64,000 bases of DNA from Candidatus Omnitrophota bacterium (GTDB lineage: Bacteria > Ratteibacteria > UBA8468 > B48-G9 > JAFGKM01): the NCBI GenBank assembly GCA_016928555.1, contig JAFGKM010000005.1:9758-73757 (forward strand), written 5' to 3'. The translations under genes were made by a program, and so were the position numbers. Each line of letters starts with the position of its first letter. The first letter of the stretch is position 1. Shown here in pieces: positions 1,110 through 35,228 of the stretch. Under the pieces are notes generated by a model. It was given only the letters and a program-made list of their open reading frames with translations, had not been told where the DNA came from and did not search any database.

Positions 1110-1138
1110 TTGACAAATTGTAAAACATTTTGTAATAT
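1110..1138 (+). promoter_or_regulatory. sigma70-like promoter TTGACA-N17-TAATAT ending 7 nt before ATG 1146 (leaderless-type)
   Basis: TTGACA at 1110-1115, a 17-nt spacer, TAATAT at 1133-1138. A second TTGACA sits at 1098-1103. No Shine-Dalgarno sequence lies before ATG 1146. Confidence 0.45.
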
Positions 1139-1145
1139 TTGTTGT

Positions 1146-1778
1146 ATGAATATAAAAGACCTTTTTCTTGCGTTTGAAAAAAGAAGAAAATTTAACCAGG
1201 TGACGAAGGAGAAGATAGCGTTAAAGTGCATGGACTTCATAAGCGCGGGCGATGAGATATTCCTGGGGGCGGGGACGACGGTTTCTTTCCTTGGGGAATA
1301 TCTTGCACGGTCGGATAAGCATTTCATGCTCAAGATATGGACGAACAATATATTTGTTTTGAATCTGTGGCTTAAGAAATACGAAGGGTTTTTACTCGAA
1401 AACTTTGTCGGGATTGTTTCAGGCGAGATTTCAAGGAAGAATCTCAGCATTGTGGACATCCATTTAGATTTTTCGAGGATAGACAAGGTTATCATCGGCA
1501 GTCCGGGTATTTCCACAAAAGGGCTTAGTTCTGACGACATCCACACTGTCCAGCAGATTGAGCATGTCATTAAAAAAGCCGGCGAGGTTATTATTCTTGC
1601 GGACAGTTCAAAGATAGGGAGAGAGTGCACCTACCAGACAAGAAGCATGAGGATGATTAAGATTGACATTGGTAAGAAGAAGAAATACATCCTGATTACC
1701 AATGAAAGCGGGGAAGAACCTTACCAGAGGACTATAAAGAAGCTTAAAGAGAGCGGAATGCATATTTTGCAGGTTTAA
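1146..1778 (+). CDS. DeoR-family C-terminal sugar-phosphate sensor domain protein lacking the N-terminal HTH
   Basis: The ISAGDEIFLGAGTTVSFLGEYL motif is typical of DeoR C-terminal domains. Only about 12 residues precede it from Met 1146, so there is no room for a DNA-binding domain. The upstream ATG 1074 lies 5' of the predicted promoter. Confidence 0.55.
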   Translation: MNIKDLFLAFEKRRKFNQVTKEKIALKCMDFISAGDEIFLGAGTTVSFLGEYLARSDKHFMLKIWTNNIFVLNLWLKKYEGFLLENFVGIVSGEISRKNLSIVDIHLDFSRIDKVIIGSPGISTKGLSSDDIHTVQQIEHVIKKAGEVIILADSSKIGRECTYQTRSMRMIKIDIGKKKKYILITNESGEEPYQRTIKKLKESGMHILQV

Positions 1779-1884: not shown

Positions 1885-3696
1885 ATGTGCGGAATACTCG
1901 GGTTTTCGGGAAAAGGGCCTGTCAGAAAAATCATAAGCCGGGGACTTAAGGCGCTGGAATACAGGGGATATGACTCCTGCGGGTATGCATTTTTATCGGA
2001 AGGTGTTGTATGCGTCAATAAGAAAACGGGGAAAGGCGGAACGGATGAACTTGTTTCGGAAATCCCTGAATATTCCGACAGGAGGATTTGTGTGATTTCC
2101 CATACCAGGTGGGCAACTCACGGGAAGGTCTGTCTGGAAAACGCGCATCCGCACAGAGACTGTAAAAATGAAATTGCCCTGGTGCATAACGGGATTATAG
2201 AAAACTATGCCCGGTTGAAGAAAGAACTTGAACAAAAAGGCCATATATTCAGCTCCGATACAGATACCGAGGTTATCGCTCATCTATTTGAGGAAGAAGC
2301 GAAAAAAATGCCTTTTCGCAAAGCTGTCCTGAAATCTCTGAATAAACTGGACGGGACTTTTGCATTGCTTGTTTTGAGAAAAGGCTGTTCTGAAATAATC
2401 GGTGCAAGAAAAGGCTCTCCTCTGTTTGCAGGCGTTAAAGGAAAGGATTTTTTCATATCTTCGGATATAAATTCCATCGTGAATTATACGGATGAAATAA
2501 TGTTTCTTGAAGACGGAGACATGTTTGCGATAGGCGATGAAATGGAAATTCTGGATTTTGTAAAAAAAGAAAGCGTTAAAAGAAGTTTTTCAAGGATAAA
2601 GAGCGGTGTTCAAAGCACTGCCATGGGAAATTTTGAAAGTTACATGCAGAAGGAGATTTTTGAACAGCCTGCCGCGCTTGTGTCTACATTCAATTCTCTG
2701 TGTAAAGAATTGGCCCGTTACATGGAAATCGTTGATACGGTGCCCGGCAGGATTACAATAGTCGGCTGCGGGAGCAGCTGGCATGCGGGGCTTATAGGCG
2801 AGTACATGATGGAGAAGCTCCTTAGAATTCCGGTAGAGGTTGAGTATGCTTCAGAATTCAGGTACCGCAATCCTGTTTTTTTGCCTGATGACCTTGTCGT
2901 TTCAATCTCCCAGTCGGGTGAAACTGCGGATACCCTCGGCGCCGTTAAAGAGGCTAAGAAGAAAGCGAAACTGCTTTCCATATGCAACGTGCATAACAGT
3001 TCAATTCCGGGAGAAAGCAATTACGCTCTGTACACCCAGGCCGGCCCGGAGATAGGAGTCGCTTCCACAAAGGCTTTTACCGCACAGATAGCCGCCCTTT
3101 ATTTCCTGAATCTCCTGCTTGCCCTCAAAATGGGGCTGATTAAAGAGTATTCCCTTGAGAAAAAGATAGAAGAATTCAGCGCAACTGCAAAAAAAATCAG
3201 ATGTATATTCTCAATGCTGCCGGATATGGAAAAAATAGCGGATAAGTTAAAAGATAAGTCCAACGCGCTGTTTTTAGGACGGGGCATCCATTTTCCCGTT
3301 GCTCTTGAAGGAGCGCTGAAGATGAAAGAAGTCAGCTATATACATGCCGAAGGATATCCTGCCGCAGAAATGAAGCATGGCCCCATTGCGCTTATAGACG
3401 AAAACATGCCTGTTGTTTTTATTTCTGTCAGAGACAGGTTTTCAATGAAAGTCATCAGCAATATGAGGGAGGTCAAGGCCAGAGGGGGCTGCATAATAAC
3501 GGTTTCTGATTATATTGACGATGATATTCTCAATATTTCAGACGAAATAATAAACATCCCTGAAGCTGAAAATGAATATTTGAAACCGCTTCTCACTGTC
3601 ATACCGCTTCAACTGCTTGCATATCTGACCGCTCTGAAAAGAGATTGCGATGTTGATAAACCGAGAAATCTGGCTAAATGCGTAACTGTGGAGTAA
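1885..3696 (+). CDS. glmS: glutamine--fructose-6-phosphate aminotransferase (isomerising)
   Basis: MCGILGF N-terminal nucleophile Cys, two SIS domains, C-terminal ...KCVTVE; 603 aa. Confidence 0.95.
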   Translation: MCGILGFSGKGPVRKIISRGLKALEYRGYDSCGYAFLSEGVVCVNKKTGKGGTDELVSEIPEYSDRRICVISHTRWATHGKVCLENAHPHRDCKNEIALVHNGIIENYARLKKELEQKGHIFSSDTDTEVIAHLFEEEAKKMPFRKAVLKSLNKLDGTFALLVLRKGCSEIIGARKGSPLFAGVKGKDFFISSDINSIVNYTDEIMFLEDGDMFAIGDEMEILDFVKKESVKRSFSRIKSGVQSTAMGNFESYMQKEIFEQPAALVSTFNSLCKELARYMEIVDTVPGRITIVGCGSSWHAGLIGEYMMEKLLRIPVEVEYASEFRYRNPVFLPDDLVVSISQSGETADTLGAVKEAKKKAKLLSICNVHNSSIPGESNYALYTQAGPEIGVASTKAFTAQIAALYFLNLLLALKMGLIKEYSLEKKIEEFSATAKKIRCIFSMLPDMEKIADKLKDKSNALFLGRGIHFPVALEGALKMKEVSYIHAEGYPAAEMKHGPIALIDENMPVVFISVRDRFSMKVISNMREVKARGGCIITVSDYIDDDILNISDEIINIPEAENEYLKPLLTVIPLQLLAYLTALKRDCDVDKPRNLAKCVTVE

Positions 3697-3712
3697 AAAA
3701 GGAGAGGATGCA

Positions 3713-4165
3713 ATGGAAGACATGAAAAAAATAGTAAGTGAGGCAAAGATGGAAGATATTGAAGGAATTGTCAGCTTGCTTTACCAGTTGAGCCCGCGAA
3801 AGCCGGGGGAATCTCTTGACAGGGAAACAGGGCAGGCAATTCTGAAAAGCATAATTGACAATCCGGATTATTGCCTTTGTGTTGCTAAAATTAACGGCGA
3901 ATTGGCCGGCACCGCTTTACTTCTTATTCAACTAAATCTGTCCCATGGAGGCAAACCCTACGGCCATGTGGAAAACGTCGTTACCGATGTCAGCCGGAGG
4001 GGAAAAGGCATAGGTCTTACAATGGTAAATTTTCTTATGTCCAAAGCCCGGGAAAGAGGATGTTACAAGGTTATTCTGGACTGCGAAGCAAAAAATATAC
4101 CTTTTTACGAGCGGTGCGGGTTCAGTCTTACGGGCGAATCGGAGATGCGCTTTAAACCGGATTGA
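3713..4165 (+). CDS. GNAT acetyltransferase, GNA1-like (glucosamine-6-phosphate N-acetyltransferase-like)
   Basis: GNAT fold motif RRGKGIG. The C-terminal GCYKVILDCEAKNIPFYERCGFS closely resembles the eukaryotic GNA1 signature (GCYKIILDC...FYEKCGFS). Shine-Dalgarno AGGAGAGG; 16 nt after the glmS stop. Confidence 0.65.
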   Translation: MEDMKKIVSEAKMEDIEGIVSLLYQLSPRKPGESLDRETGQAILKSIIDNPDYCLCVAKINGELAGTALLLIQLNLSHGGKPYGHVENVVTDVSRRGKGIGLTMVNFLMSKARERGCYKVILDCEAKNIPFYERCGFSLTGESEMRFKPD

Positions 4166-4296
4166 TTTCATCCGGTTTTAGTAAATTAATAATATTTCCG
4201 GTAGCCGCAGGTCTTCAGCCTGCGGTCCTCATTCCATGCGCAACCTAAAGAGTTGCGGCTACCAGCTTTATTACTTCTTACGTCAGCCGTAGGTAT

Positions 4297-5445
4297 TTAA
4301 GCGGAGAGCTTTCTGAGGAGTTTATCTTTTTCAAGAGGAGAAATCCTCATTCTCCTTACGATTTCCCTGAAAAAAACAATGCTGGCATCGTATGTTTTCC
4401 TGTCAACAGGGTAGGGCGTTCCGTCTTTCCCGCCGTGGGCGAAGGAATATCTCGCAGGGTCTTTGTAAGAAGGCTCCGCGCCGTAAATCACTTCAGATAC
4501 AAGGCTGAGCGCCCGCATTGTTTTCGGCCCGACGCCTTTTATTGCAAGGAGGTTTTCATAGTTTGAGGGTTTTCTCTGGTAGACGGTCCAGAGGATTTTT
4601 TCAAGATATTTGTTGTAAGAAAAGTTTTCATCCATGACAGGATGTGTTTTGAACTCTGTATTCTTGAGTTCCAGAAAGATGGTTTCGTCTTCACCGTGTT
4701 TTAATGCAGCCATCCTTGATAATTCACCGGAATGTTTCCTGAGTATGCGCATGTCGCTCATAAGTCCCGTATATGACGTATTGACAAGCTCGGTTGACAT
4801 CTGCCTTGTTCCCTCGCTTTCCTTCGCGGTAAGGTTCAGGCATCTGTTCCTCGCCTGACTGGCTATCCCCGAATGGGGCTCGCATACCATATCTTTAACA
4901 TTATTTGAAAACCAGTGGTATCTTCTTGCCGTGCTGTTTGCGGTGTTCATTCCCTGCTGTACCACCGCCCAGAGCCCGTTCCTGGAAAAGAAAAAAGAGT
5001 GGTGGTATATGTTATAGCCATCCTGGATTAACGAGGTGTCAACCTTGGCGACCATCTTGGAGTTGTATACAAGGCTTTCTACGCTGCCTTCTCTGAAGGA
5101 AATCCTGTTTCCCCATTGCGTTATCTGTTCGGGCGTTTTGAGAGACGTTTTTCCCTTGCCTCCGCATATGAAAATTCCGAGCTGTTTCTCCATGCCTCTG
5201 ATGGATTCCTTGAGTGAAGCGGTCAGTATGGTAGTTAACCCTGAGGCGTTCCAGTCAAAAGCGAGGACCGTGCCAAGGGACTGGAACCATACAGGGTCGG
5301 AAATCCTTTCTATGAATTCATCGGGCCCGTATTCCGCGACTATCGCCTCAACCATGCTTCTGCCCAGCTTCACCATCCTCTCAAAAAGCCATTTCGGGCA
5401 CTGTCCCGTATCAAGGGTAAAGGTGGCAATCCCTCTGCGTATCAT
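4297..5445 (-). CDS. DUF763-like protein with helix-hairpin-helix motif
   Basis: 382 aa. The N-terminal CPKWLFERMVKLGR and the LLAIKGVGPKTMRAL HhH motif resemble DUF763-family proteins as recalled from memory. Confidence 0.5.
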   Translation of the reverse strand: MIRRGIATFTLDTGQCPKWLFERMVKLGRSMVEAIVAEYGPDEFIERISDPVWFQSLGTVLAFDWNASGLTTILTASLKESIRGMEKQLGIFICGGKGKTSLKTPEQITQWGNRISFREGSVESLVYNSKMVAKVDTSLIQDGYNIYHHSFFFSRNGLWAVVQQGMNTANSTARRYHWFSNNVKDMVCEPHSGIASQARNRCLNLTAKESEGTRQMSTELVNTSYTGLMSDMRILRKHSGELSRMAALKHGEDETIFLELKNTEFKTHPVMDENFSYNKYLEKILWTVYQRKPSNYENLLAIKGVGPKTMRALSLVSEVIYGAEPSYKDPARYSFAHGGKDGTPYPVDRKTYDASIVFFREIVRRMRISPLEKDKLLRKLSA

Positions 5446-6056
5446 TTCCCGTCCTTTTTGCCGCCCATTACGATAAGGGCGTGAAAGTCCTGGTACAAGG
5501 CATAGTCTTTTTTGCCCAGCCCCTTCTCAAATAATTCCTGAAGGCGTCCGTATGAAAAATTATCCGACAATTCAAGTTTTTTTACAAGCCTTCTGGTGTA
5601 TTCGTCTATGACAAAAAAGGGTTTTTCAAATGCATACAGAAGGATATCATCGGCGGTTTCCTCTCCTATGCCGTTCAGGGAAAGCAGTTTTTCTCTTAAT
5701 AAAGGAGCCGGGATTTTTATTGCTTTGTCAATTCCGCCGCATTCTTTAGCAATAAATCCGGAGAGTATTTTCAGGCGTTGGGATTTGATTTTATAAAATC
5801 CGGAAGGCCTTATATGGCGTTGAAGTTTTTCTTCTTCCGCAGAAAAAATTTGTTTTAAGCCGAGCACGCCGGCGTCTTTAAGGTTGGAAACTGCCAGACA
5901 AACGTTATTCCAGTTCGCTCTCTGCGTGAGGATTGACTCTATGATTACGGTTTCCTTTTCTGACTTTGTTTTGGGCCTTTTACACCAGAGCGACCACTGC
6001 CCTTGGGGTTTTCCGTGTTTTTTCAGGAGGGTTTCATAGAGGGCATACATGTTCAT
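5442..6056 (-). CDS. endonuclease III-related HhH-GPD DNA glycosylase family protein
   Basis: LNGIGEETADDILLYAF is an HhH-GPD motif. 204 aa. The stop overlaps the DUF763 start (ATGA). Confidence 0.7.
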   Translation of the reverse strand: MNMYALYETLLKKHGKPQGQWSLWCKRPKTKSEKETVIIESILTQRANWNNVCLAVSNLKDAGVLGLKQIFSAEEEKLQRHIRPSGFYKIKSQRLKILSGFIAKECGGIDKAIKIPAPLLREKLLSLNGIGEETADDILLYAFEKPFFVIDEYTRRLVKKLELSDNFSYGRLQELFEKGLGKKDYALYQDFHALIVMGGKKDGK

Positions 6057-6064
6057 TACGCTGC

Positions 6065-6772
6065 TTATTTCTTTATTTCGGCGGCTATGATTATCGCTTC
6101 CGCCACCTCTTTCATGTTTTTTCTGTTGTCCATGCTGAATTTTCTGAGCCTGTTGTACGCTTCTTCCTCTGTTATCTTCTCTTCCCGCATCAGAATGCCC
6201 TTTGCCTTTTCAACTTTTTTGCGTATGTCTATTTCTTCTTCCAGAACCTTTGTCTTTACCATCAGCTCCGTGTTTTCAATTATTATTGCCGACTGGTTTG
6301 CTATGGAGCTCAGGATCTCTATTTCCCGTTCGCCGAATTTATGGGGTTTCGCGGTGTATATGTTTAGAACTCCGGTTATCTTGCCTTTGACCTTCATTGG
6401 AACCGCAAGCATTGACACCATATTTTCCCTTACGGCTATTTCACGGTGCTTGAAGTCAGGCTCTTTTCTTACGTCCCGAACAAGTACGGGCTGTCCCGTT
6501 TTTACTACCTTGCCGGCTATCCCTTCGTCTATCTTAAGCGGGGGTTTTTTAAGGTATTCGTCGCTTATCGCCTGGCTGGCGCGTATCTTAATGAGTTTTT
6601 CCTTTTCGTCTATAAGCATTATGGAGCATATCTTTGAACCTGTCATCTGGGCGGTTACGTTGACGATGAGTTTAAGGATGTCCTCCAGGTACATATCGGA
6701 TGTTATCGCCCTGCTTATTTCATACAGGGCTTTTATCTGCTCATTATATTCTTTTTTTTCGTGAGAGGCCAT
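6065..6772 (-). CDS. GAF domain / ANTAR domain RNA-binding regulator
   Basis: N-terminal GAF domain; C-terminal ANTAR motif AKGILMREEKITEEEAYNRLRKFSMDNRKNMKEVAEAII. Confidence 0.8.
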   Translation of the reverse strand: MASHEKKEYNEQIKALYEISRAITSDMYLEDILKLIVNVTAQMTGSKICSIMLIDEKEKLIKIRASQAISDEYLKKPPLKIDEGIAGKVVKTGQPVLVRDVRKEPDFKHREIAVRENMVSMLAVPMKVKGKITGVLNIYTAKPHKFGEREIEILSSIANQSAIIIENTELMVKTKVLEEEIDIRKKVEKAKGILMREEKITEEEAYNRLRKFSMDNRKNMKEVAEAIIIAAEIKK

Positions 6773-6842
6773 TTTTGCTTTTCCCGTAAGGTGTGCCGTT
6801 TAGCGTATGGTACACCCGATGAGCCCAAAAGTCAATTTCTTC

Positions 6843-7751
6843 TTATTTCAGCAGGCATCCTTGCGTAAGACGCTCTTTTAACATTTTTTCTTCAATCTTT
6901 GTTAAAATGAATTGCTTTTTGTTTATCCATTCAGGGGCAAGAAGTATTTCTTCGGGGCAGTCTGCAGTCAGTCTCTGTATTACCATTTCGGGATTCAGCC
7001 GGCAAAGGAATTCGGAAACTATTTCCATGTAACTTTCAAGTTTAAGCGGAATATATTTCCCTTCGTTTAACATCTTCCCGAGAGCCGTTCCCTTTACGGC
7101 GTGGAGGGGATGTATTTTTATGCCGTCAAGTCCGAGCCGGCTGCATTCTTTTGCAGTTTCAAACATGTTTTCTTTCGTTTCTCCCGGCAGTCCGAGGATA
7201 ACATGGGCGCAGATTTTTATTCCCCTGTTTTTTGTGATTTCGACGGCTTTCAGGAAGTCTTCATAGGTGTGATTCCTGTTGATAAATTTCAGCGTTTTAT
7301 TATGAATTGACTGTAAACCGTATTCAAGCCACACCTCATACTCTTTTGCGTAGGCCTGAATGACGGCAAGTTTTTCCGCGTCAATGCAGTCGGGCCTTGT
7401 GCCTATTGAGATGCCTGCTATATCCTTGAATTTTCTAACCGCATCATAACGCTCCTTAAGAATTTCCGCCGGGGCGTACGTGTTTGAATACGGCTGAAAG
7501 TAAACAATGAATTTTTTTGCCTTATAGCGGCGTCTTCCGCGCTCCATCCCGTTTTCAATCTGACGTTCAATCGGGATGTTTTTTCCCCTGACAGAGGGGC
7601 TGAAGGCGCAATTATCGCAGAATATACAGCCGTCTTTACTGAAGGTACCGTCTGTGTTTGGGCAGTTGAATCCTGCATCAACCGTGATTTTATGCACGCG
7701 GCATCCGAAGCGCTCTTTAAGATATTCCGAGAATTTATAGTAAGGTCTCAT
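6843..7751 (-). CDS. radical SAM protein, TIGR01212/YhcC family
   Basis: CxxxCxxC-type cluster (NCPNTDGTFSKDGCIFCDNCAF) and a TIM-barrel radical SAM core similar to E. coli YhcC. Confidence 0.8.
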   Translation of the reverse strand: MRPYYKFSEYLKERFGCRVHKITVDAGFNCPNTDGTFSKDGCIFCDNCAFSPSVRGKNIPIERQIENGMERGRRRYKAKKFIVYFQPYSNTYAPAEILKERYDAVRKFKDIAGISIGTRPDCIDAEKLAVIQAYAKEYEVWLEYGLQSIHNKTLKFINRNHTYEDFLKAVEITKNRGIKICAHVILGLPGETKENMFETAKECSRLGLDGIKIHPLHAVKGTALGKMLNEGKYIPLKLESYMEIVSEFLCRLNPEMVIQRLTADCPEEILLAPEWINKKQFILTKIEEKMLKERLTQGCLLK

Positions 7752-11758: not shown

Positions 11759-11798
11759 AACCGCACCCTTTAAATTTATTTAGGGGGTGCGGTTTTTT
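11759..11798 (+). terminator. rho-independent terminator (CCGCACCC-loop-GGGTGCGG + TTTTTT)
   Basis: 8-9-bp GC-rich stem with a 15-nt loop followed by a T6 run, directly after the small ORF. Confidence 0.6.
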
Positions 11799-12717
11799 AT
11801 CTGCCTATTGAAACCGGAATGCCGGAAATCCTCTTCAACTCCTCCTCCAGTTTTTCCGGATTTATTTTATCGAGGAGATTCAGCTCTTTCAGTTTTTCAC
11901 GGGCGAGTGCTTCCACGCCGGAAATGAGGGAATAAATATCGGGGTGGACTTCAATCAAAATTTCTTTTTCAGCGGCGTAAATTTTAACCGGTTCGTAAAT
12001 AAATGCTCCGGTATCTCCGACAGCAACTTCCTCAAAAACCTTATGTATGTCTTCAGGATACAGACGCACGCATCCGTGGCTTAGGGCTTTTCCTATTGAC
12101 ATCGGCTGGTTGGTACCGTGAATTCCTGTGTGCCTGACAGATGTTCCAATCCACCTGTCGCCAAGAGGGTTATCGGGACCGGCGGGGATGATTTCCCTTT
12201 TTACCTTTTCTCTCTCGGCAATCTCCAGAGGCATGTACCATGCAGGGTCCCTGACTTTATCAACAATCATAAATTCGCCGAGCGGCGTCTGCCATGTCAC
12301 CAGGCCTATGCAGATAGGATATACTCCGGCAAGCATTCGGTTATTGAAAACATACATGCGGAATTCAGGAACGTTTATTAATATGCCGCGTTCCGTGGTT
12401 TTTGGGACGATTACATTGAGAGGAATGACAAGTTTCTGTTCCGGAAATATAAGATTGGGATTGTCTATGCCGTTGGCGCGGGCAATTGCAGGGTAAGAGA
12501 CTCCGTATATCCTGGCTATATTGAAAAGGGATTCGTCAGGTTTTACGGTGTGTATAATATTTTCACCCGTTATAAACAATTGCTGGGGAATTGAGTTGTT
12601 GTTTGAAGAAGAGAGCGTATCTGTCCCTGTTTCAGCATAAACGGTATAAAGTACTCCGGCAAGCATTAACAGTCCTGCAACCAACAAACGTATCAAGTTC
12701 TTTCTTCTCTGGTTCAT
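11797..12717 (-). CDS. LysM domain-containing L,D-transpeptidase (YkuD family)
   Basis: N-terminal membrane anchor, LysM (HTVKPDESLFNIARIYGVSYPAIARANGI) and the L,D-transpeptidase catalytic motif HGTNQPMSIGKALSHGCVRL. Confidence 0.85.
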   Translation of the reverse strand: MNQRRKNLIRLLVAGLLMLAGVLYTVYAETGTDTLSSSNNNSIPQQLFITGENIIHTVKPDESLFNIARIYGVSYPAIARANGIDNPNLIFPEQKLVIPLNVIVPKTTERGILINVPEFRMYVFNNRMLAGVYPICIGLVTWQTPLGEFMIVDKVRDPAWYMPLEIAEREKVKREIIPAGPDNPLGDRWIGTSVRHTGIHGTNQPMSIGKALSHGCVRLYPEDIHKVFEEVAVGDTGAFIYEPVKIYAAEKEILIEVHPDIYSLISGVEALAREKLKELNLLDKINPEKLEEELKRISGIPVSIGR

Positions 12718-12818: not shown

Positions 12819-12853
12819 ATATTTCTATTCTCATGATTCCATTGGGGGTAAAA

Positions 12854-13867
12854 ATGAGCAGAGAGCTGTTTCTTAAAAGCGTCGTTAGGGAAAATGATTC
12901 CGGCATGACTGTTTTCGGCACCGGAACCAGCATTGTATGCAGAGATGTTATGGAAAGCGTAAAAACTTATTTGCCGCAAGGACATATAGAACCTGAGGCG
13001 ATGTTCAACCTTGCTCTTGCCGGCCATACTCTTCTGGGATTCGACGTAGTCATGCCTCTTTTCAGCACATGCCATGAGGCAGCGTCCATGGGATGCAGCG
13101 TCAAGTGGGGCGGACCTGAAATGATGCCTGAGAGCGGCGGACCGATATTCAAAACATCCGATGATATAAATATTCCGGCAGACCTGCTTGCCCGGCCGGG
13201 TTGTGCCGTGCCTCTAAAAGCCATCGCTATGCTGCGAAAAGAGTTAGGAGATGAAGCGGCTGTTTGCGGCAAGGTTTTTGGAAGCTGGACTCAGGCGTAC
13301 CACTACTTCGGGATAGAAAATTTTCTTATCAAAACAATTACCGAGCCGGATGAGGTCAAACGGATTTTGGAAAAATTGATGCCCGTGACCATTCAATTTG
13401 CACAAGCTCAGATAGAGGCCGGTGCAGACTGTATTCTTCTCGGAGACCACGCCACACGTGATCTCTGCAGTCCTTCTTCCTATAAAGAATTTTTGATGGA
13501 CATGCATGCTCAACTGGCTGATGCTGTAAAAGCGCCTTTGATATTGCATATATGCGGCAATACTTCAGACCGCATCAGTTATATTTCCCGTACAGGCCTG
13601 CCGTGTTTTCACTGGGATACCAAGACAGGTTCACCGCAGGAAGTAAGGAATTTAGCCGGTGAAAAACTTTCGTTGATGGGAGGAATAAGCAATCTTAGAT
13701 TGCTTAACGGCACACCGGACGAGATAGCAGAGATGGCTTTTTCCGCGGCATGTGCCGATATAGATATAATAGGTCCCGAGTGCGCTATTCCCTTGACAAC
13801 GCCTCTTGCCAATCTTAAGGCAATAACTTCTATCGGCAGGAAAAAAAGAATAAGAAGGAAAATTTAG
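12854..13867 (+). CDS. uroporphyrinogen decarboxylase (URO-D)/MtaA-like family protein, paralog 1
   Basis: HICGNT...GGISN...P.EIA.. C-terminal architecture typical of the URO-D/MtaA/CmuA superfamily. Confidence 0.7.
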   Translation: MSRELFLKSVVRENDSGMTVFGTGTSIVCRDVMESVKTYLPQGHIEPEAMFNLALAGHTLLGFDVVMPLFSTCHEAASMGCSVKWGGPEMMPESGGPIFKTSDDINIPADLLARPGCAVPLKAIAMLRKELGDEAAVCGKVFGSWTQAYHYFGIENFLIKTITEPDEVKRILEKLMPVTIQFAQAQIEAGADCILLGDHATRDLCSPSSYKEFLMDMHAQLADAVKAPLILHICGNTSDRISYISRTGLPCFHWDTKTGSPQEVRNLAGEKLSLMGGISNLRLLNGTPDEIAEMAFSAACADIDIIGPECAIPLTTPLANLKAITSIGRKKRIRRKI

Positions 13868-15051
13868 AGGCTTCGTGCAAATTCTCTGATAGTCTCCAGC
13901 CTGTCGATTTCGGCGTCGGGCAGAACATTGTCTGAAACTTCCAGAATTAAAGGCTCGCCCCTTCTGTAGCTTTTTTTGAATTCTGCAAGGAAGTTTTTGA
14001 ATTGAGTATCGGAAAAAGATGATTTGAAAAGAATCGTTGAAGGTATTCCCCCGCAAATTACCTGTTCCGGACGCAAACTGTCTCTTATTTCCCTGTAGGT
14101 ATTTTTTACCATGGGGGCTGTACTTACAGCCTGCAGAATGTCTATGCCGCTCTGTCTGTATAACTCCAGCAATTGATTGTTTTCGCCGTCGCAGTGAGAG
14201 ATGACCAATCCGCCTTTTTCATGTATAATTTCGCATACATTATTCAAAAAAGGAAGGATATGTTCTCTGAAAAAAGGAGGAAAAGTGAGCATGCTGTCAT
14301 AGTTTCCTCCCCAGACTACTATGGGTTTCTTTGCACATTCTGTTACAGTTTTCAAAATACTCAATAAAAAACTTTCAAGCACTTTGCATAATGCGAGAAG
14401 TTTTTTTAGATTAAGCTTGTATTCTATATAAAAGAAAGAAGGATCCATTAAATCACGAAGAACGGCATGCATGGGACTTGCCGCCAGATAGCCGTAAACA
14501 GGGGGGAATCCTTCGTCTCCGACGGCCTCCAGTGACATGCGGTAATTTTCCGGTTTAGGGATAACCTTGACGGAAGCAAAGATATCCATAACCTTGCTAT
14601 AATCATCCTCGGACTTTATAAGATGCTCTTTTATAGGCGGTAAAGTTGAACCCTGCTTTTTTAACGTCTCGTCCATCAGGAAGCTGCCGGATAAATTACT
14701 TTCGGGGAGTTCGTATTTAACCCGTATCAAACCGTTATCGTTATTTACAATCGTCTTAAAAGAGGGGTCCAAAGCAACGTCATATGGAATATCTCTGGAT
14801 GAAAAAATGCCCAATAGCCTGTTTTGAAGAGAAATAATGTTGTAGTTATCGCTAAAATCAGGAAGAATTTTATTATAAGTGAGGTCAAGATTTTTAACAA
14901 TCTGTTTTAAGCTCAGGCCTTTAAATTTTTCCGGCAGGATCCCTTTATAAGAATTGCTGTAGTACCATATATCCATTCTTGGAGCAAAGGGAACGCCTTC
15001 CTGCATATTACCCCTCAATGCTTCCAAAAAAATCTCTTTTTTATTTTTCAT
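13864..15051 (-). CDS. URO-D-like family protein, paralog 2
   Basis: SHCDGEN...LEVSDNVLPDAEIDRL is a URO-D-like C-terminus. It is convergent with paralog 1 and overlaps it by 4 nt. Confidence 0.65.
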   Translation of the reverse strand: MKNKKEIFLEALRGNMQEGVPFAPRMDIWYYSNSYKGILPEKFKGLSLKQIVKNLDLTYNKILPDFSDNYNIISLQNRLLGIFSSRDIPYDVALDPSFKTIVNNDNGLIRVKYELPESNLSGSFLMDETLKKQGSTLPPIKEHLIKSEDDYSKVMDIFASVKVIPKPENYRMSLEAVGDEGFPPVYGYLAASPMHAVLRDLMDPSFFYIEYKLNLKKLLALCKVLESFLLSILKTVTECAKKPIVVWGGNYDSMLTFPPFFREHILPFLNNVCEIIHEKGGLVISHCDGENNQLLELYRQSGIDILQAVSTAPMVKNTYREIRDSLRPEQVICGGIPSTILFKSSFSDTQFKNFLAEFKKSYRRGEPLILEVSDNVLPDAEIDRLETIREFARSL

Positions 15052-24456: not shown

Positions 24457-25617
24457 TCAGCTTATGCCGAAAAAATTTCTGTAGGTTTTTACCACGGCAT
24501 AGTAGTTTTCAATCTTTACGTCTTCGTGTACGGAATGGCTTAAATGAAGGATGTGCCCTCCCTTTGTCCTTAGCCCGTGGTTGAGGCATTCTATGACTTC
24601 TTTTTCCGCCTCGGCAGGGCCTGCATTGCACATTGTGTATCTCGCGTCTATGTTTCCTATTATGCATATCCTGTCAGCAACGCCTTCTTCAATGAGCTTT
24701 TCCCATGTCATGCCGGCGGATTTGTCAACCTCTTTGTATCCGTCAATCCCAGAATTGAAGAAGAAATCGTCTTTTATGGGCCAGTGGTTTCCGTCGGAAG
24801 TGTAGACGGCAAATGCACCCATATTGTGTATCAGATTAACGTGTTCCCGCATTACCGGCAGAATGAATTTGCGGTAAAGGGCAGGGGAGATGAAAGGCCC
24901 TTTGTCACAGCTTACGTCTCCCCCTATAGCGACAACCCTGCATCCGTCTTCAATCATTTTTTTCGTGTATTCAAAACAACCCGCTTTCTGCATTTCAATC
25001 CAGCGGAGGTATATTTCCGGTTTTTCAAGCATCCACATCAGCATAAAAGGCTGGTAAAAAGCCACTCCTGTTCCCGCTCCGGATTCAGCCATATACACCC
25101 AGTCAATGCCGTCGGCTTTCGCGAACTCTCTCACTCTTTTCATGACAGGGCTGTATATACGCAGTTTTTCGCTGTTGCCGGTATTCCCGCCCCATGCTTC
25201 TATTTTCTTTATCATTTCTTCTTCTGAAATCTGCTGGGAATAAGAATGAGCTGGGTTTTCCGGTAACACAAGCTTGGTTCTTTCGTTGAAAATATAAGGC
25301 GTTCCCTCAAGAGTCCAGCTCTTTTTTCCGGTTTTTACGGGGCGCTTGCCCCTGATAAAACCGTGGCTTGTCAGCCGTACCATGTCCAAACCGAAAAAAC
25401 GGCATATCTTGTACTGCGCCTTAGCAGACGCCTCTATGAATTCTTCTTCGGGAACGCCTTCAGCCATCGCATCCCATGCCATTTCCGAATCCGTTGCGAC
25501 GGTTCTTCCGCAGATATCCCAGTGTATGGGTTGAAACGGCTGGAATATTTCAAACAACGGCGTTCTGTCCGGTTTCCCGTGTTTTAGAGCCGTGAATACT
25601 CTTTCTTTCCTGTCCAT
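24457..25617 (-). CDS. URO-D-like family protein, paralog 3
   Basis: URO-D superfamily barrel with ...ICIIGNIDARYTM...GGHILHLSHSV C-terminus; 386 aa. Confidence 0.6.
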   Translation of the reverse strand: MDRKERVFTALKHGKPDRTPLFEIFQPFQPIHWDICGRTVATDSEMAWDAMAEGVPEEEFIEASAKAQYKICRFFGLDMVRLTSHGFIRGKRPVKTGKKSWTLEGTPYIFNERTKLVLPENPAHSYSQQISEEEMIKKIEAWGGNTGNSEKLRIYSPVMKRVREFAKADGIDWVYMAESGAGTGVAFYQPFMLMWMLEKPEIYLRWIEMQKAGCFEYTKKMIEDGCRVVAIGGDVSCDKGPFISPALYRKFILPVMREHVNLIHNMGAFAVYTSDGNHWPIKDDFFFNSGIDGYKEVDKSAGMTWEKLIEEGVADRICIIGNIDARYTMCNAGPAEAEKEVIECLNHGLRTKGGHILHLSHSVHEDVKIENYYAVVKTYRNFFGIS

Positions 25618-25743: not shown

Positions 25744-26922
25744 ATGAAGAACAAAAATAAGCGCTATAAAAAACCCGTACTTAACCTGATTTACAGTAAA
25801 CAGCCCATTTCAAGGATAAGGATAGGGGAGATTACGGGTATAAGGCTTGCTACCATAACGGAAGTTACCCGGGAATTTTTGAAAAACGGCCTGGTTAAAG
25901 AGACCGGAAAAATAAGTAACCGCAGAGGTGTGGGAAGAAAGGAGAAACTGCTGGAGATGATACCGGAAGGCAAGTATTTCCTCGGCTGCGAGCTCATGCC
26001 TTCATGTATAAGGGCTCTGGCGCTTAATTTAAAAGGGGAGATATTAAAGCTGAAGACAGTTCCGTTATCAAAAGGGGAGAAAACTTCCGCCATCCTTTCA
26101 AAAGCATCATCTGTCGTATCATCGTTAATTGAAGAGTTGAAAATCCCCGGGAAAAAAATATACGGTCTGGGTTTTGTTGACCCCGGCATAATTGACGTGG
26201 AGAAAGGCATCTCTGTCTTTTCCGCAATAATGCCCGGATGGAAAAACGTGCCGGTAAAGAAGTTCCTTGAGGAAAAACTTGGATTCAATGTTTTTTTGAT
26301 AAACACCTCTCAGGCAAAGGTGCTGGCGGAGCATTCCTTCGGCAGGGGGAAGGGGGTGGACAACGTAATTTTCGTGGAATACGGAGAAGGTATTTCATGC
26401 GGCATTATAAGCGAGAAGACGCTTATAGGCGGATATAAGGAAATAGCGGGCGAGATGGGGCACTTTAATTTTCCCGGCAGAAATGAAAAATGCAAATGCG
26501 GAAGCAAGGGCTGTCTTGAGGCTATCGCGAGCCTGCCTGCAATAGAAAACAAGACCAGAAAGTATCTCGGGGCAGGAGAGGAATCCCTGATGAAAGAGAA
26601 AGATTTTTCTCCGGGTATAGCCGGTATCGTGGATGCATTTGAAAGGAATGACAGGCTTGCCGTAAATGTCATGGAAGAAACCTCGCTGCTTTTATCTTTC
26701 TGCGTAGCCAATGTAATTAAGCTTTTAAATCCTGAACTCGTGATACTGGACAGAAATTTTTCAAAACTCGGTAAAAAATTTTGGGAGATTTTTATTGGCA
26801 GGGTAAACGATAATTTGATGTACGGCGAAAAAGCAAAGTTTAGAATATCCGACATGGGAGAAGAACAGGCAAGTCTGGGAGGAGCAGCCCTTCTCCTTCA
26901 GAATTTCCTGAAAAAAAGTTGA
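25744..26922 (+). CDS. ROK family transcriptional regulator
   Basis: N-terminal wHTH, ROK sugar-kinase fold and zinc motif CKCGSKGCLEA. Confidence 0.85.
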   Translation: MKNKNKRYKKPVLNLIYSKQPISRIRIGEITGIRLATITEVTREFLKNGLVKETGKISNRRGVGRKEKLLEMIPEGKYFLGCELMPSCIRALALNLKGEILKLKTVPLSKGEKTSAILSKASSVVSSLIEELKIPGKKIYGLGFVDPGIIDVEKGISVFSAIMPGWKNVPVKKFLEEKLGFNVFLINTSQAKVLAEHSFGRGKGVDNVIFVEYGEGISCGIISEKTLIGGYKEIAGEMGHFNFPGRNEKCKCGSKGCLEAIASLPAIENKTRKYLGAGEESLMKEKDFSPGIAGIVDAFERNDRLAVNVMEETSLLLSFCVANVIKLLNPELVILDRNFSKLGKKFWEIFIGRVNDNLMYGEKAKFRISDMGEEQASLGGAALLLQNFLKKS

Positions 26923-26947
26923 CATGCAATTTTTTTTGATATATAAT
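26919..26947 (+). promoter_or_regulatory. consensus sigma70 promoter TTGACA-N17-TATAAT
   Basis: Perfect -35 and -10 with a 17-nt spacer. It overlaps the ROK stop and sits 36 nt upstream of the DegT-family ATG, which has an AAGGGGGA Shine-Dalgarno. Confidence 0.6.
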
Positions 26948-26983
26948 TTACAGAAATGTAATTAATGTAAAAAGGGGGATAAA

Positions 26984-35212: not shown

Positions 35213-35228
35213 AAATCGCACCGTTACA

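What the first reader, a model, noticed from the sequence alone, without database searches (positions are those of the whole stretch)
1885..4165. glmS immediately followed by a eukaryote-type GNA1-like GlcN-6-P N-acetyltransferase
The GNAT protein at 3713-4165 carries the GNA1 signature GCYKVILDC...FYERCGFS, close to yeast and human GNA1.

Bacteria normally make UDP-GlcNAc via GlmM/GlmU, which acetylates GlcN-1-P. A GNA1-like enzyme 16 nt after glmS implies direct acetylation of GlcN-6-P. That is the eukaryotic Leloir-type route. Alternatively it could be a dedicated GlcNAc-6-P branch for a cell-envelope glycan.
Basis: partly seen in the sequence, partly recalled or inferred. Interest (0 to 1): 0.6.

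Follow-up and report, generated by a model that had tools for sequence, protein, structure and literature searches.

The report
Prokaryotic GNA1-like acetyltransferase beside glmS
A small acetyltransferase right after glmS in this uncultured bacterium belongs to an overlooked bacterial/archaeal sister group of the eukaryotic enzyme GNA1. In archaeal relatives it is built into, or even fused with, the UDP-GlcNAc pathway in place of the usual GlmU acetyltransferase domain.

Summary
glmS (1885-3696) is followed 16 nt later by a 150-aa GNAT (3713-4165) carrying the GCYKVILDC/FYERCGFS motif.

**Family assignment.** Sequence, profile, predicted structure and functional residues all place the GNAT in the GNA1 (GlcN-6-P N-acetyltransferase) clade. 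That clade also contains two uncharacterised bacterial GNATs.

**Genomic context.** Context is the strongest evidence.
- In 27 of 37 species-level loci the family sits beside glmS, a GlmM-like mutase and/or a GlmU-type uridylyltransferase that lacks its acetyltransferase half.
- In Thermoplasmata and one Nanoarchaeota MAG the GNAT is fused to that uridylyltransferase.
- In one Woesearchaeota locus it is fused to both mutase and uridylyltransferase.
- In bacteria it forms a permuted trio with glmS and a highly conserved, HTH-less DeoR sensor-domain protein.

**Most likely function.** It acetylates GlcN-6-P made by GlmS, feeding UDP-GlcNAc synthesis.

**Not shown.** There is no enzymology. GlcN-1-P remains a possible substrate. 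Whether this organism lacks GlmU is unknown, and a 2026 survey finds glmU in all 176 complete Omnitrophota genomes, so coexistence is likely here.

**Novelty.** No held paper describes this prokaryotic family. A 2026 preprint calls for an "unidentified acetyltransferase" in bacteria with truncated GlmU.

The parts
1110..1138 (+). Sigma-70-like promoter match (TTGACA-17-TAATAT) just upstream of the DeoRC gene start. Weak evidence only.
   Evidence: 10 of 12 matches; the number of such matches in the region is about what shuffles give. It lies inside the longer 1074-start ORF, which favours the ATG at 1146 as the real start.
1146..1778 (+). First gene of the cluster: a 210-aa stand-alone DeoR C-terminal (sugar-phosphate sensor) domain protein with no helix-turn-helix.
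   Evidence: PF00455 only, 78.5 bits. NCBIfam DeoR models align only from profile position ~66 onward. 65 homologs, all ~210 aa and HTH-less, at 48-90% identity. AF2 pLDDT 90.5. Foldseek best match is the E. coli DeoR effector domain 7l6l, TM 0.7-0.83. It lies immediately upstream of the GNAT and/or glmS in L001-3, L005, L012-15, L017, L019, L020, L028 and L049-51.
1885..3696 (+). glmS, glutamine--fructose-6-phosphate aminotransferase (makes GlcN-6-P).
   Evidence: TIGR01135 709.8 bits (cutoff 418), full length 2-603. GATase plus two SIS domains. N-terminal Met-Cys.
3698..3706 (+). Shine-Dalgarno-like AAGGAGAGG, 6 nt before the GNAT start codon, inside the 16-nt glmS-GNAT spacer.
   Evidence: Read directly from the sequence. 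No promoter or terminator match lies in the spacer, consistent with co-transcription.
3713..4165 (+). GNA1-like GNAT, putative GlcN-6-P N-acetyltransferase (150 aa).
   Evidence: PDB phmmer top hits are GNA1s, 8e-20 to 2e-11. In profile searches, GNA1s plus 2dxq and 1z4e score 88-124 bits against 61 or less for other GNATs (core-only profile). AF2 pLDDT 93.8. Foldseek top hit is AtGNA1, with Sc/Tb/Af/Hs/Ce GNA1 at TM 0.8-0.89. Residues E87, K119, C124, Y132, M145 and R146 are conserved.
4154..4178 (+). 9-bp hairpin (AAACCGGAT/ATCCGGTTT) spanning the GNAT stop codon, followed by U's. Probable end of the operon.
   Evidence: the 4148-4275 fold has MFE -46.6 kcal/mol and z = -6.2 against shuffles. 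The simple terminator scan did not flag it, so its terminator function is inferred.
4200..4263 (.). Long imperfect hairpin between the convergent GNAT (+) and DUF763 (-, ends at 4297) genes. Possible bidirectional terminator.
   Evidence: same fold. Function inferred.

Best explanation
The 150-aa protein is a prokaryotic member of the GNA1 clade of GNAT acetyltransferases. It is co-transcribed with glmS, and probably with the upstream HTH-less DeoRC protein.

**Proposed pathway.** GlmS converts fructose-6-P and glutamine to GlcN-6-P. The GNAT then transfers acetyl from acetyl-CoA to the C2 amine, giving GlcNAc-6-P. A phosphohexomutase and a uridylyltransferase encoded elsewhere would convert this to UDP-GlcNAc for peptidoglycan and envelope glycans.

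**Role by lineage.** In archaeal relatives the family supplies the only visible acetyltransferase of the pathway, standing in for the missing LbH half of GlmU. In this bacterium it more likely runs alongside a normal GlmU as a second, GlmS-coupled entry. The DeoRC-only protein is proposed to be a sugar-phosphate-sensing partner that acts without binding DNA.

**Shown:** gene order, family assignment, residue conservation, synteny and gene fusions.

**Inferred:** substrate, product, pathway order, co-transcription and the DeoRC role.
For: 1. **Sequence.** The best PDB matches are characterised GNA1s.
   - The family profile scores all six GNA1 orthologs at 98-123 bits, while the next non-clade GNAT scores 61.
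   - The core-only profile gives the same ranking.
2. **Structure.** The AF2 model has pLDDT 93.8. Foldseek ranks At, Sc, Tb, Af, Hs and Ce GNA1 at the top, with TM 0.8-0.89.
3. **Residues.** Positions defined in CeGNA1/ScGNA1 (PMC3413214; PMC4964394) are conserved in every operon-linked prokaryotic member.
   - Present: Glu87 (= Ce E104), Lys119 (= Ce K136, 6-phosphate ligand), Cys124 (= Ce C141), Tyr132 (= Ce Y149 / Sc Y143) and Met145 (= Ce M161).
   - A basic C-terminal Arg146/Lys148 corresponds to Ce R164. The tail EMR[IL][DN] matches the QMRLD of T. brucei GNA1.
4. **Synteny.** 27 of 37 species-level loci place the GNAT beside glmS, a GlmM-like mutase and/or a 230-aa NTP-transferase.
   - Four-gene sets occur in Thermoplasmata and Methanosarcinales MAGs.
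   - glmS and the GNAT overlap by 8 nt in an Iainarchaeum MAG.
5. **Partner identity.** The NTP-transferase matches only positions 2-225 of the 393-position archaeal GlmU model, so it has no acetyltransferase half. The mutase is closest to archaeal GlmM. The HAD-CofD neighbour is YvcK/GlmR, a UDP-GlcNAc-binding GlmS regulator.
6. **Fusions.**
   - NTP_transferase-GNAT single ORFs occur in L035, L042, L044 and L040.
   - A PGM-NTP_transferase-GNAT ORF occurs in L030.
   - At least 25 clusters of the fusion exist.
   - Cuniculiplasma has overlapping glmS -> mutase -> fusion genes.
7. **Bacterial relatives.** They keep DeoRC, GNAT and glmS together with permuted order. That argues for selection on the linkage rather than inherited order.
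Against: - No enzymology exists for any member of the prokaryotic family.
- The Asp of the GNA1 Glu-Asp dyad (Sc D99 / Ce D105, which hydrogen-bonds the sugar 4-OH) is Asn88 throughout the family. The uncharacterised 2dxq group shares this.
- By score the family is as close to 2dxq, of unknown function, as to GNA1. The NJ tree does not resolve a specific sister relationship.
- Fusion to the uridylyltransferase and a GlmM-like rather than AGM1-like mutase fit equally well with acetylation of GlcN-1-P.
- The window has no mutase or uridylyltransferase for amino sugars.
- glmU is reported in 176/176 complete Omnitrophota genomes, so the GNAT is probably not essential for UDP-GlcNAc here.
- Six bacterial or unassigned loci show the GNAT without adjacent glmS.
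Confidence: 0.65

Rival explanations
1. The enzyme belongs to the same pathway but has different regiochemistry. The GNAT acetylates GlcN-1-P, the GlmU-type reaction, after a GlmM-type mutase has acted. It would be a non-homologous replacement of the GlmU LbH domain that keeps the bacterial reaction order.
For: - The GNAT is fused directly to the uridylyltransferase in Thermoplasmata and Nanoarchaeota. GlmU's two domains likewise catalyse consecutive steps.
- The operon mutase is closest to phosphoglucosamine mutase models, scoring 354-405 bits on Arch_GlmM.
- Asn88 replaces the Asp that contacts the sugar in GNA1.
Against: - The 6-phosphate ligands of GNA1 (Lys119, C-terminal Arg) and the whole acceptor-site motif are conserved. 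The C-terminal tail is nearly identical to that of biochemically characterised TbGNA1.
- In bacteria and several DPANN loci the GNAT is adjacent to or overlapping glmS with no mutase between them. That is the layout expected for consecutive GlmS and GNAT steps.
- Fused domains need not catalyse consecutive steps.
Confidence: 0.17
2. The chemistry is the same (GlcN-6-P to GlcNAc-6-P), but in this bacterium the purpose is not bulk UDP-GlcNAc supply. With a full GlmU present, the DeoRC-glmS-GNAT module would control the GlcN-6-P pool by relieving GlmS product inhibition or sugar-phosphate stress. Or it would feed a dedicated GlcNAc-6-P-derived branch or signal.
For: - glmU was found in 176/176 complete Omnitrophota genomes.
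- The cluster always begins with a very highly conserved sugar-phosphate sensor domain.
- In some lineages DeoRC pairs with glmS without any GNAT. In others it pairs with the GNAT without adjacent glmS.
- No mutase or uridylyltransferase lies near any bacterial locus.
Against: - Every informative archaeal context ties the family to UDP-GlcNAc synthesis itself.
- No enzyme that would use GlcNAc-6-P for another product, such as NanE, was seen next to the bacterial clusters.
- It is unknown whether the window organism belongs to the lineages surveyed.
Confidence: 0.3
3. The protein is a GNAT with an unrelated acceptor, such as an amino acid, polyamine or antibiotic, like other small bacterial GNATs. 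Its resemblance to GNA1 and position after glmS would be coincidental.
For: - Pfam and NCBIfam give only generic GNAT assignments, and no NCBIfam model passes its cutoff.
- The top or near-top PDB hit, 2dxq, has no known function.
- A few loci (L007/8, L011, L016, L024, L045) show no sugar genes nearby.
Against: - The linkage recurs across two domains of life, with permuted order and independent gene fusions.
- GNA1-specific residues are conserved.
- The 2dxq-like group differs from this family. It lacks Cys124 and the EMR tail, has a 3-residue insertion, and the one member whose genomic context was examined (P0045) has no amino-sugar neighbours.
Confidence: 0.04

Closest known systems
Eukaryotic GNA1 / GNPNAT1 (glucosamine-6-phosphate N-acetyltransferase, EC 2.3.1.4; structures 1i1d, 2huz, 2vez, 3t90, 3i3g, 4ag7)
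   Same: - Same GNAT sub-clade by sequence, profile and predicted fold.
- Same length class, about 150 aa.
- Conserved Glu87, Lys119, Cys124, Tyr132, Met145 and a C-terminal basic residue.
- CYK(V/I)ILDC and FYE+CGF motifs.
- Follows the GlcN-6-P synthase step.
   Different: - Only about 32% identical.
- The Glu-Asp dyad is Glu-Asn.
- Encoded in operons or fused with pathway genes.
- Partners are a GlmM-like mutase and the GlmU N-terminal-type uridylyltransferase rather than AGM1 and UAP1.
- No biochemical data.
GlmU, bifunctional GlcN-1-P acetyltransferase / GlcNAc-1-P uridylyltransferase of bacteria and archaea
   Same: It supplies the acetylation step of UDP-GlcNAc synthesis. In Thermoplasmata the NTP_transferase-GNAT fusion has the same two-activity layout as GlmU.
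   Different: - The acetyltransferase is a GNAT fold using a Tyr/backbone mechanism, not a trimeric left-handed beta-helix.
- The probable substrate is GlcN-6-P rather than GlcN-1-P.
- In the window the GNAT is a separate gene next to glmS, and no GlmU is in view. The GlmU-like hit at 36274-37485 is GlgC.
Uncharacterised bacterial GNATs 2dxq (Agrobacterium) and 1z4e (Bacillus halodurans)
   Same: Equal or slightly better profile scores than GNA1. They share Glu-Asn, CYK and FY motifs.
   Different: The 2dxq-like group lacks Cys124 and His85, has a 3-residue insertion before FY, and lacks the EMR tail. The one member whose context was examined, P0045, has no amino-sugar genes nearby. 1z4e's residues and context were not examined. 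Function is unknown, so these proteins cannot guide annotation.
Giant-virus (Mimivirus) GNA1-like enzyme in a virus-encoded UDP-GlcNAc pathway (from my own knowledge; not examined here)
   Same: A GNA1-type acetyltransferase operating outside eukaryotic cells, together with a GlmS/GFAT homolog.
   Different: The viral pathway uses a UAP-type pyrophosphorylase and is thought to be of eukaryotic type. It has no operon, no DeoRC partner and no fusion.
S. aureus NagU and the truncated-GlmU bacteria described in bioRxiv 10.64898/2026.06.23.733835
   Same: Another case where the textbook GlmU route is not the whole story. That paper explicitly infers 'an unidentified acetyltransferase' in species with only the uridylyltransferase half of GlmU.
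   Different: NagU is a uridylyltransferase, not an acetyltransferase. The GNAT family described here is not mentioned there. Its presence in those particular species, such as Polystyrenella, was not tested.
DeoR-family repressors and GlmR/YvcK (for the upstream 210-aa protein)
   Same: DeoRC fold, closest to the E. coli DeoR effector domain. Like GlmR, it is a small-molecule-binding protein genetically tied to glmS. GlmR itself occupies the equivalent place in the DPANN clusters.
   Different: It has no DNA-binding domain, so it is not a DeoR-type repressor. It is unrelated in fold to GlmR. Its ligand and partner are unknown.

Membership tests
GNA1 (GlcN-6-P N-acetyltransferase, EC 2.3.1.4) | GNAT fold with the acetyl-CoA pyrophosphate-binding loop (Q/R-x-x-G-x-G/A) | tested here: met
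   PF00583 at 67.7 bits. R96-G97-K98-G99-I100-G101, with R96, G99 and G101 invariant in the family. AF2 pLDDT 93.8.
GNA1 (GlcN-6-P N-acetyltransferase, EC 2.3.1.4) | Closer to characterised GNA1s than to any other characterised GNAT family | tested here: met
   With the A1 profile, GNA1s score 98-123 bits against 61 or less for other characterised GNATs. With the core profile the figures are 66-89 against 46 or less. Foldseek top ranks are GNA1s. Caveat: the uncharacterised 2dxq and 1z4e score in the same range.
GNA1 (GlcN-6-P N-acetyltransferase, EC 2.3.1.4) | Catalytic/leaving-group tyrosine (Sc Y143, Ce Y149) | tested here: met
   Tyr132 is invariant in 36/36 aligned homologs and in all operon-linked members.
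GNA1 (GlcN-6-P N-acetyltransferase, EC 2.3.1.4) | Beta-bulge Glu-Asp dyad binding sugar 3-OH/4-OH (Sc E98-D99, Ce E104-D105) | tested here: inconclusive
   Glu87 is invariant, but the second residue is Asn88 in every prokaryotic member and Asp in every eukaryotic one. Asn could keep the hydrogen bond, but this is untested.
GNA1 (GlcN-6-P N-acetyltransferase, EC 2.3.1.4) | 6-phosphate ligands: Lys of the CYK motif (Ce K136) and a C-terminal Arg (Ce R164 / Sc R158) | tested here: met
   Lys119 is invariant. Arg146 in the EMR tail is near-invariant and Lys148 sits in the Sc R158 register. The register of the Arg differs by two residues from Sc/Ce but equals that of TbGNA1 (QMR). Lys119 is also kept in 2dxq-like proteins, so it is not discriminating on its own.
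GNA1 (GlcN-6-P N-acetyltransferase, EC 2.3.1.4) | Family-conserved active-site cysteine (Ce C141 / Sc C135), preceded by the residue whose backbone carbonyl binds the substrate amine (Hs E156) | tested here: met
   Asp123-Cys124 in the window protein. The Cys is kept in most members but is Gly or Ser in a few, such as P0033-35 and L042.
GNA1 (GlcN-6-P N-acetyltransferase, EC 2.3.1.4) | Homodimer with exchanged C-terminal strand forming the acceptor site | not testable with these tools
   Only a monomer model could be made. The last 16 residues have no secondary structure in the monomer model. That is compatible with strand exchange but does not show it.
GNA1 (GlcN-6-P N-acetyltransferase, EC 2.3.1.4) | Acetyl-CoA-dependent N-acetylation of GlcN-6-P | not testable with these tools
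   Needs an enzyme assay. Supported only indirectly, by adjacency or overlap with glmS.
Eukaryotic-order hexosamine pathway (GFA1-GNA1-AGM1-UAP1) | AGM1-type GlcNAc-phosphate mutase and UAP1-type pyrophosphorylase present | tested here: not met
   None in the window. In relatives the partners are GlmM-like and GlmU-N-terminal-like. The reaction order may still be the eukaryotic one, but the enzymes are not the eukaryotic families.
Eukaryotic-order hexosamine pathway (GFA1-GNA1-AGM1-UAP1) | Absence of a GlmU-type (LbH) acetyltransferase in the same genome | not testable with these tools
   Only 64 kb of the genome is available. A literature survey reports glmU in 176/176 complete Omnitrophota genomes, which argues against absence in this phylum.
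GlmS (glutamine--fructose-6-phosphate aminotransferase) | N-terminal Cys glutaminase domain plus two SIS domains, full-length match above the curated cutoff | tested here: met
   TIGR01135 at 709.8 bits against 418. Starts MCGI. GATase_6/7 plus two SIS stretches.
DeoR-family transcriptional regulators (for 1146-1778) | N-terminal HTH_DeoR DNA-binding domain joined to the DeoRC sensor domain | tested here: not met
   Only PF00455 is found. DeoR models align from position ~66 onward. All 65 close homologs are about 210 aa with no PF08220. The protein has the sensor fold but is not a DeoR-type DNA-binding regulator.
GlmU (for window 36274-37485) | Full-length match to GlmU models | tested here: not met
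   GlgC models score 571 bits (cutoff 470), while GlmU models score about 25 bits. The gene lies in a glycogen cluster.

The most novel reading that the evidence does not exclude
The window GNAT represents an unrecognised prokaryotic GNA1 family that is the 'missing acetyltransferase' of a GlmU-LbH-independent UDP-GlcNAc pathway. That pathway would be GlmS -> GNA1-like GNAT -> GlmM-like mutase -> N-terminal-only GlmU.

The pathway would operate in Thermoplasmata, DPANN archaea and some candidate-phylum bacteria. In several archaea it is condensed into a GNAT-containing GlmU analogue.

The eukaryotic GNA1 step would then have a prokaryotic, possibly archaeal, root.

In bacteria the module would be governed by a new kind of DNA-binding-free DeoR-sensor protein acting on GlmS and/or the GNAT.
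Probability: 0.35. Interest if true: 0.75.

Novelty: new variant of a known kind. Interest (0 to 1): 0.62.

Why it matters
UDP-GlcNAc is the entry metabolite for peptidoglycan, S-layer and protein glycans, and many envelope sugars. Textbooks assign its acetylation step to GlmU in all prokaryotes and to GNA1 only in eukaryotes.

A June 2026 preprint from the Walker laboratory notes bacteria that keep only the uridylyltransferase half of GlmU. It infers an unidentified acetyltransferase.

The family found here is a concrete, testable candidate:
- It is GNA1-like.
- It is operon-linked or fused to exactly those truncated uridylyltransferases in archaea.
- It includes members from a genus with cultured representatives (Cuniculiplasma).

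Confirmation would have four consequences:
1. It would correct pathway reconstructions for DPANN, Thermoplasmata and some candidate bacterial phyla. These proteins are currently annotated only as 'GNAT family N-acetyltransferase'.
2. It would give a second example of non-homologous replacement within GlmU.
3. It would bear on where the eukaryotic hexosamine pathway came from.
4. The HTH-less DeoRC partner, more conserved than either enzyme, points to an unexplored way of controlling GlmS.

Tried and rejected
- **glmS ribozyme or other riboswitch near glmS.** None found in the window, L001, L005, L049 or L050 at Rfam gathering thresholds.
- **A GlmU in the window.** The only NTP_transferase + 'Hexapep_GlmU' protein (36274-37485) is GlgC.
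- **Fetching the rest of the window's own contig via P0001.** The protein is not on record in the contig index, so the extra ~11 kb of the 75.5-kb contig was not seen.
- **First genome scan with the broad alignment A1.** It failed because no stretch was conserved enough. I repeated it with the core alignment A2.
- **Thermophilic 'GNA1 mining' paper PMC9829697.** The passages read give no evidence for characterised prokaryotic GNA1s. Its templates and fungal databases are eukaryotic, and I did not establish the source of every candidate.
- **T. brucei GNA1 paper (PMC3147419).** Wanted for acceptor-site residues, but not held.
- **NJ tree to decide whether the prokaryotic family is sister to eukaryotic GNA1.**
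  - 2dxq-like proteins separate at 96% bootstrap.
  - Monophyly of the prokaryotic group is unresolved, and three-group topology cannot be rooted, so no claim is made.
- **DeoRC-only protein as an RpiA/NagB-like enzyme.** Foldseek puts it much closer to the DeoR effector domain (TM 0.7-0.83) than to RpiA (about 0.45). I favour a sensor role, though catalysis is not excluded.
- **Zn-ribbon miniprotein as a hidden DNA-binding partner in the window.** There is no homolog in the window or in the GNAT-containing loci.
- **Literature searches.** Searches for prokaryotic GNA1, NTP-transferase-GNAT fusions and HTH-less DeoR proteins at glmS found nothing relevant. The library is open-access only, so absence is not proof.


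Full report
**1. Observation**

The window carries, on the + strand, a 603-aa ORF at 1885-3696 and a 150-aa ORF at 3713-4165. They are separated by 16 nt that contain AAGGAGAGG six bases before the second ATG.

The first ORF is an ordinary full-length GlmS. TIGR01135 scores 709.8 bits against a cutoff of 418, and the protein has a glutaminase domain plus two SIS domains.

The second is a GNAT (PF00583, 67.7 bits) with GCYKVILDC at residues 116-124 and FYERCGFS at 131-138. No NCBIfam model reaches its cutoff, so public annotation is only 'GNAT family N-acetyltransferase'. The identical protein, P0001, comes from a Candidatus Omnitrophica MAG on a 75.5-kb contig.

**2. What the GNAT is**

*Sequence.* A single-sequence search of PDB puts characterised GNA1 enzymes on top:

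| Structure | Organism | E-value |
|---|---|---|
| 3t90 | Arabidopsis | 8e-20 |
| 3fb3 | T. brucei | 9e-20 |
| 1i12 | yeast | 4e-16 |
| 2vez | A. fumigatus | 2e-14 |
| 4ag7 | C. elegans | 3e-12 |
| 2huz | human | 2e-11 |

*Profile.*
- A profile of 36 homologs scores all GNA1s at 98-123 bits.
- Two uncharacterised bacterial GNATs score in the same range: 2dxq at 124 bits and 1z4e at 88.
- The next GNAT scores 61.
- A profile of the 17 closest homologs gives the same picture.

*Structure.* An AlphaFold model (pLDDT 93.8) finds the same proteins first by Foldseek, at TM 0.8-0.89.

*Residues.* Using the functional residues described for C. elegans and yeast GNA1 (PMC3413214; PMC4964394), the window protein and every operon-linked prokaryotic member keep:
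- Glu87, the sugar 3-OH ligand
- Lys119, the 6-phosphate ligand
- Asp123-Cys124
- Tyr132, which stabilises the thiolate
- Met145
- a basic C-terminus (Arg146, Lys148)

The tail GE(V/S)EMR(I/L)(D/N) is almost the same as the ERQMRLD of T. brucei GNA1.

One difference is systematic. The Asp of the Glu-Asp dyad is Asn88 in all prokaryotic members and Asp in all eukaryotic ones.

*Family boundaries.*
- The 2dxq-like proteins share Glu-Asn. However, they lack His85, Cys124 and the EMR tail, and carry a three-residue insertion before FY.
- The one 2dxq-like member examined has no amino-sugar neighbours.
- A hit that JGI labels as GNA1 with the Glu-Asp form (P0052) lies beside a kinesin gene, so it is eukaryotic.
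- Mean identities are bacterial-archaeal 47%, prokaryotic-eukaryotic 32%, and prokaryotic to 2dxq-like 33%.
- The family is rare. Only 43 clusters at 50% identity reach E <= 1e-30 among 1.84 billion representatives.

**3. Genomic context**

This is the decisive evidence. I located GlmS, mutase, NTP-transferase, DeoRC and HAD-CofD genes in them by tblastn.

*Archaea:*
- glmS -> mutase -> NTP-transferase -> GNAT in three Thermoplasmata MAG loci from at least two MAGs (L035, L042, L044).
- All four genes, in another order, in a Methanosarcinales MAG (L021).
- mutase -> NTP-transferase -> GNAT in ten DPANN genomes.
- glmS -> GNAT -> HAD-CofD in three genomes.
- NTP-transferase next to the GNAT in six more.

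*Partner identities:*
- The mutase is closest to archaeal GlmM (354-405 bits).
- The 230-aa NTP-transferase matches only positions 2-225 of the 393-position archaeal bifunctional GlmU model, so the acetyltransferase half is missing.
- The CofD part is YvcK/GlmR, the UDP-GlcNAc-binding GlmS regulator (352 bits against a cutoff of 196).

*Fusions:*
- In L035, L042, L044 and L040 the NTP-transferase and the GNAT form one ORF of about 378-429 aa.
- In L030 an 888-aa ORF contains mutase, NTP-transferase and GNAT.
- At least 25 clusters of the two-domain fusion exist, in Thermoplasmata, Cuniculiplasma and Micrarchaeaceae. They are named only 'GNAT family N-acetyltransferase' or 'dTDP-glucose pyrophosphorylase'.
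- In Cuniculiplasma, glmS, the mutase and the fusion overlap one another inside a glycosylation island.

These fusions amount to a GlmU analogue in which a GNA1-like GNAT replaces the left-handed beta-helix domain.

**4. The bacterial version and the third gene**

In Omnitrophota, Ratteibacteria, a 'Vermiphilus' MAG and unnamed bacteria, the cluster is DeoRC -> GNAT -> glmS (L001-3, L005, L013, L015). Related forms are GNAT -> glmS at a contig start (L004, L018) and DeoRC -> GNAT (L012, L014, L017, L019, L020, L028). The window has DeoRC -> glmS -> GNAT. Permuted order with retained linkage argues for function.

The upstream gene is best read from the ATG at 1146 (210 aa). All 65 close homologs are about 210 aa, and a promoter-like site sits at 1110-1138.

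It is a stand-alone DeoR C-terminal sensor domain with no helix-turn-helix. Its model (pLDDT 90.5) is closest to the E. coli DeoR effector domain (TM 0.7-0.83) and much further from RpiA (about 0.45).

It is the most conserved gene of the trio, at 74-85% identity across loci where the GNAT is 50-73% and GlmS 63-66%. In more distant lineages it sits directly upstream of glmS with a 49-aa CxxC...CxxC miniprotein in the place of the GNAT.

No glmS ribozyme or other Rfam element is present. I infer a sugar-phosphate-sensing protein that acts on GlmS and/or the GNAT without binding DNA. It would be analogous in logic to GlmR, which occupies the equivalent position in the DPANN clusters. This is inference only.

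**5. The pathway in this organism**

The window holds no amino-sugar mutase or uridylyltransferase. The one GlmU-like domain hit (36274-37485) is GlgC, in a glycogen cluster.

Peptidoglycan is evidently made, since there is a YkuD-LysM L,D-transpeptidase at 11797-12717.

A June 2026 preprint reports glmU (K04042) in 176/176 and glmS in 174/176 complete Omnitrophota genomes. I could not check the window's own genome. It is also unclear whether it belongs to the surveyed orders, because its closest relatives are variously labelled Omnitrophica and Ratteibacteria.

On balance the GNAT here probably coexists with GlmU. The 'replacement' reading is well supported for the archaeal relatives but not for this bacterium.

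**6. Mechanism and rivals**

*Best explanation (0.65).* The GNAT acetylates the GlcN-6-P produced by the co-transcribed GlmS, giving GlcNAc-6-P that enters UDP-GlcNAc synthesis.

*Main chemical rival (0.17).* The GNAT acetylates GlcN-1-P.
- The fusions to the uridylyltransferase and the GlmM-like mutase would fit this equally well.
- Against it stand the conserved GNA1 phosphate ligands and the direct glmS-GNAT adjacency or overlap.

*Physiological variant (0.30, not exclusive).* In GlmU-containing bacteria the module manages the GlcN-6-P pool or feeds a side branch.

*Unrelated substrate (0.04).* Very unlikely.

The 3' end of the operon is marked by a hairpin over the stop codon (4154-4178) and a long hairpin (4200-4263) before the convergent DUF763 gene. 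The fold has z = -6.2.

**7. Comparison with what is known, and novelty**

GNA1 is textbook for eukaryotes and, to my knowledge, giant viruses. GlmU is textbook for bacteria and archaea.

Full-text searches found no description of a prokaryotic GNA1 family, of NTP-transferase-GNAT fusions, or of HTH-less DeoR proteins at glmS. The library covers open-access papers only.

Some automatic pipelines already label a few hits 'glucosamine-phosphate N-acetyltransferase', including two members of this family (P0015, P0022). The idea is therefore latent in databases but not analysed.

The Walker-laboratory preprint states that species with only the uridylyltransferase half of GlmU imply 'an unidentified acetyltransferase'. 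This family is a specific candidate for that enzyme.

I rate the finding a new variant of a known kind. The enzyme family and chemistry are known. What appears new is the prokaryotic clade, its operon and fusion architectures, and the DeoRC partner.

**8. Limits**

- No biochemistry, no dimer model and no whole-genome presence/absence test were possible.
- The tree does not resolve deep relationships.
- Co-transcription, terminator function and the DeoRC role are inferred.
- The MAG-derived fusions could in principle include assembly or frameshift artefacts. However, their recurrence in at least 25 clusters from independent samples makes that unlikely for the two-domain fusion.
- The triple fusion rests on one locus (L030).

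Noticed in passing
window 1146-1778 (+): A 210-aa stand-alone DeoR C-terminal sensor domain protein with no HTH. It is always the first gene of the bacterial cluster and more conserved (74-90% identity) than GlmS or the GNAT. It forms a tight family of about 65 clusters restricted to Omnitrophica, Ratteibacteria and unnamed bacteria, annotated 'hypothetical protein'.
   Followed up: yes
L049 10646-10795; L050 10661-10810; L051 10652-10819: A conserved ~49-56-aa CxxC...CxxC zinc-ribbon miniprotein sits between the DeoRC-only gene and glmS in lineages that lack the GNAT. It occupies the same slot as the GNAT elsewhere. It is uncalled in L051 and absent from the window.
   Followed up: partly
L035 6189-7325; L042 3593-4735; L044 7598-8734; L040 9122-10411; L056 8001-9131: Single ORFs fuse a GlmU-type NTP-transferase domain to the GNA1-like GNAT. 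This is a GlmU analogue with a GNAT instead of the LbH domain. It is found in Thermoplasmata, Cuniculiplasma, Nanoarchaeota and Micrarchaeaceae, and is named only 'GNAT family N-acetyltransferase' in databases.
   Followed up: yes
L030 230-2896: An 888-aa stop-free frame in a Woesearchaeota MAG contains phosphohexomutase domains I-IV, an NTP-transferase and the GNAT. It appears to be a three-enzyme fusion. It is seen in one locus only, so an assembly artefact is not excluded.
   Followed up: partly
L006 8468-10126 (also L031, L034; split genes in L036): In DPANN archaea, glmS -> GNAT is followed by a fusion of a HAD hydrolase with YvcK/GlmR, the UDP-GlcNAc-binding GlmS regulator known from Firmicutes (TIGR01826, 352 bits). 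A GlmR-type regulator in archaea, fused to a phosphatase- or mutase-like domain, is unexpected.
   Followed up: partly
window 29771-37485 (-): A complete glycogen cluster: GlgB-like branching enzyme, GH57, GlgA, a GalT-like uridylyltransferase and GlgC. The GlgC C-terminus hits Pfam 'Hexapep_GlmU' and could be mistaken for GlmU.
   Followed up: yes
window 25744-28297 (+): A ROK-family NagC/Mlc-like regulator is followed by a DegT/PseC-type sugar aminotransferase. This suggests that UDP-GlcNAc-derived modified sugars are made in this organism.
   Followed up: no
window 52543-54099: A low-GC stretch (38% against about 46%) is packed with small minus-strand genes that look like toxin-antitoxin pairs (85-aa and 86-aa overlapping ORFs, a 150-aa ORF and another 85-aa ORF). 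It may be a small mobile or addiction island. None of these ORFs was scanned against any library; this is from reading the translations only.
   Followed up: no
window 12833-13867 (+), 13864-15051 (-), 24457-25617 (-): Three paralogous URO-D-family proteins (uroporphyrinogen decarboxylase / MtaA-like methyltransferase fold) occur within 13 kb. Relatives also carry an MTTB-family gene near the cluster (L005). Their role is unknown.
   Followed up: no
window 47613-48643 and 50334-50846: Long tandem repeats (153/306-nt and 195-nt periods, 80-85% matches) lie inside a BNR-repeat protein gene (47339-48742) and a DUF7948/SBBP beta-propeller protein gene (49757-52162). These are recently expanded repeat modules in surface-type proteins.
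   Followed up: no
window 4297-7751 (-) and L001-L004: The DUF763, HhH-GPD glycosylase, GAF-ANTAR and radical-SAM gene string downstream of the cluster is conserved in relatives whose GNAT is about 65% identical. Between that string and glmS, those relatives carry an extra amidohydrolase and a 176-aa ORF that the window lacks.
   Followed up: no
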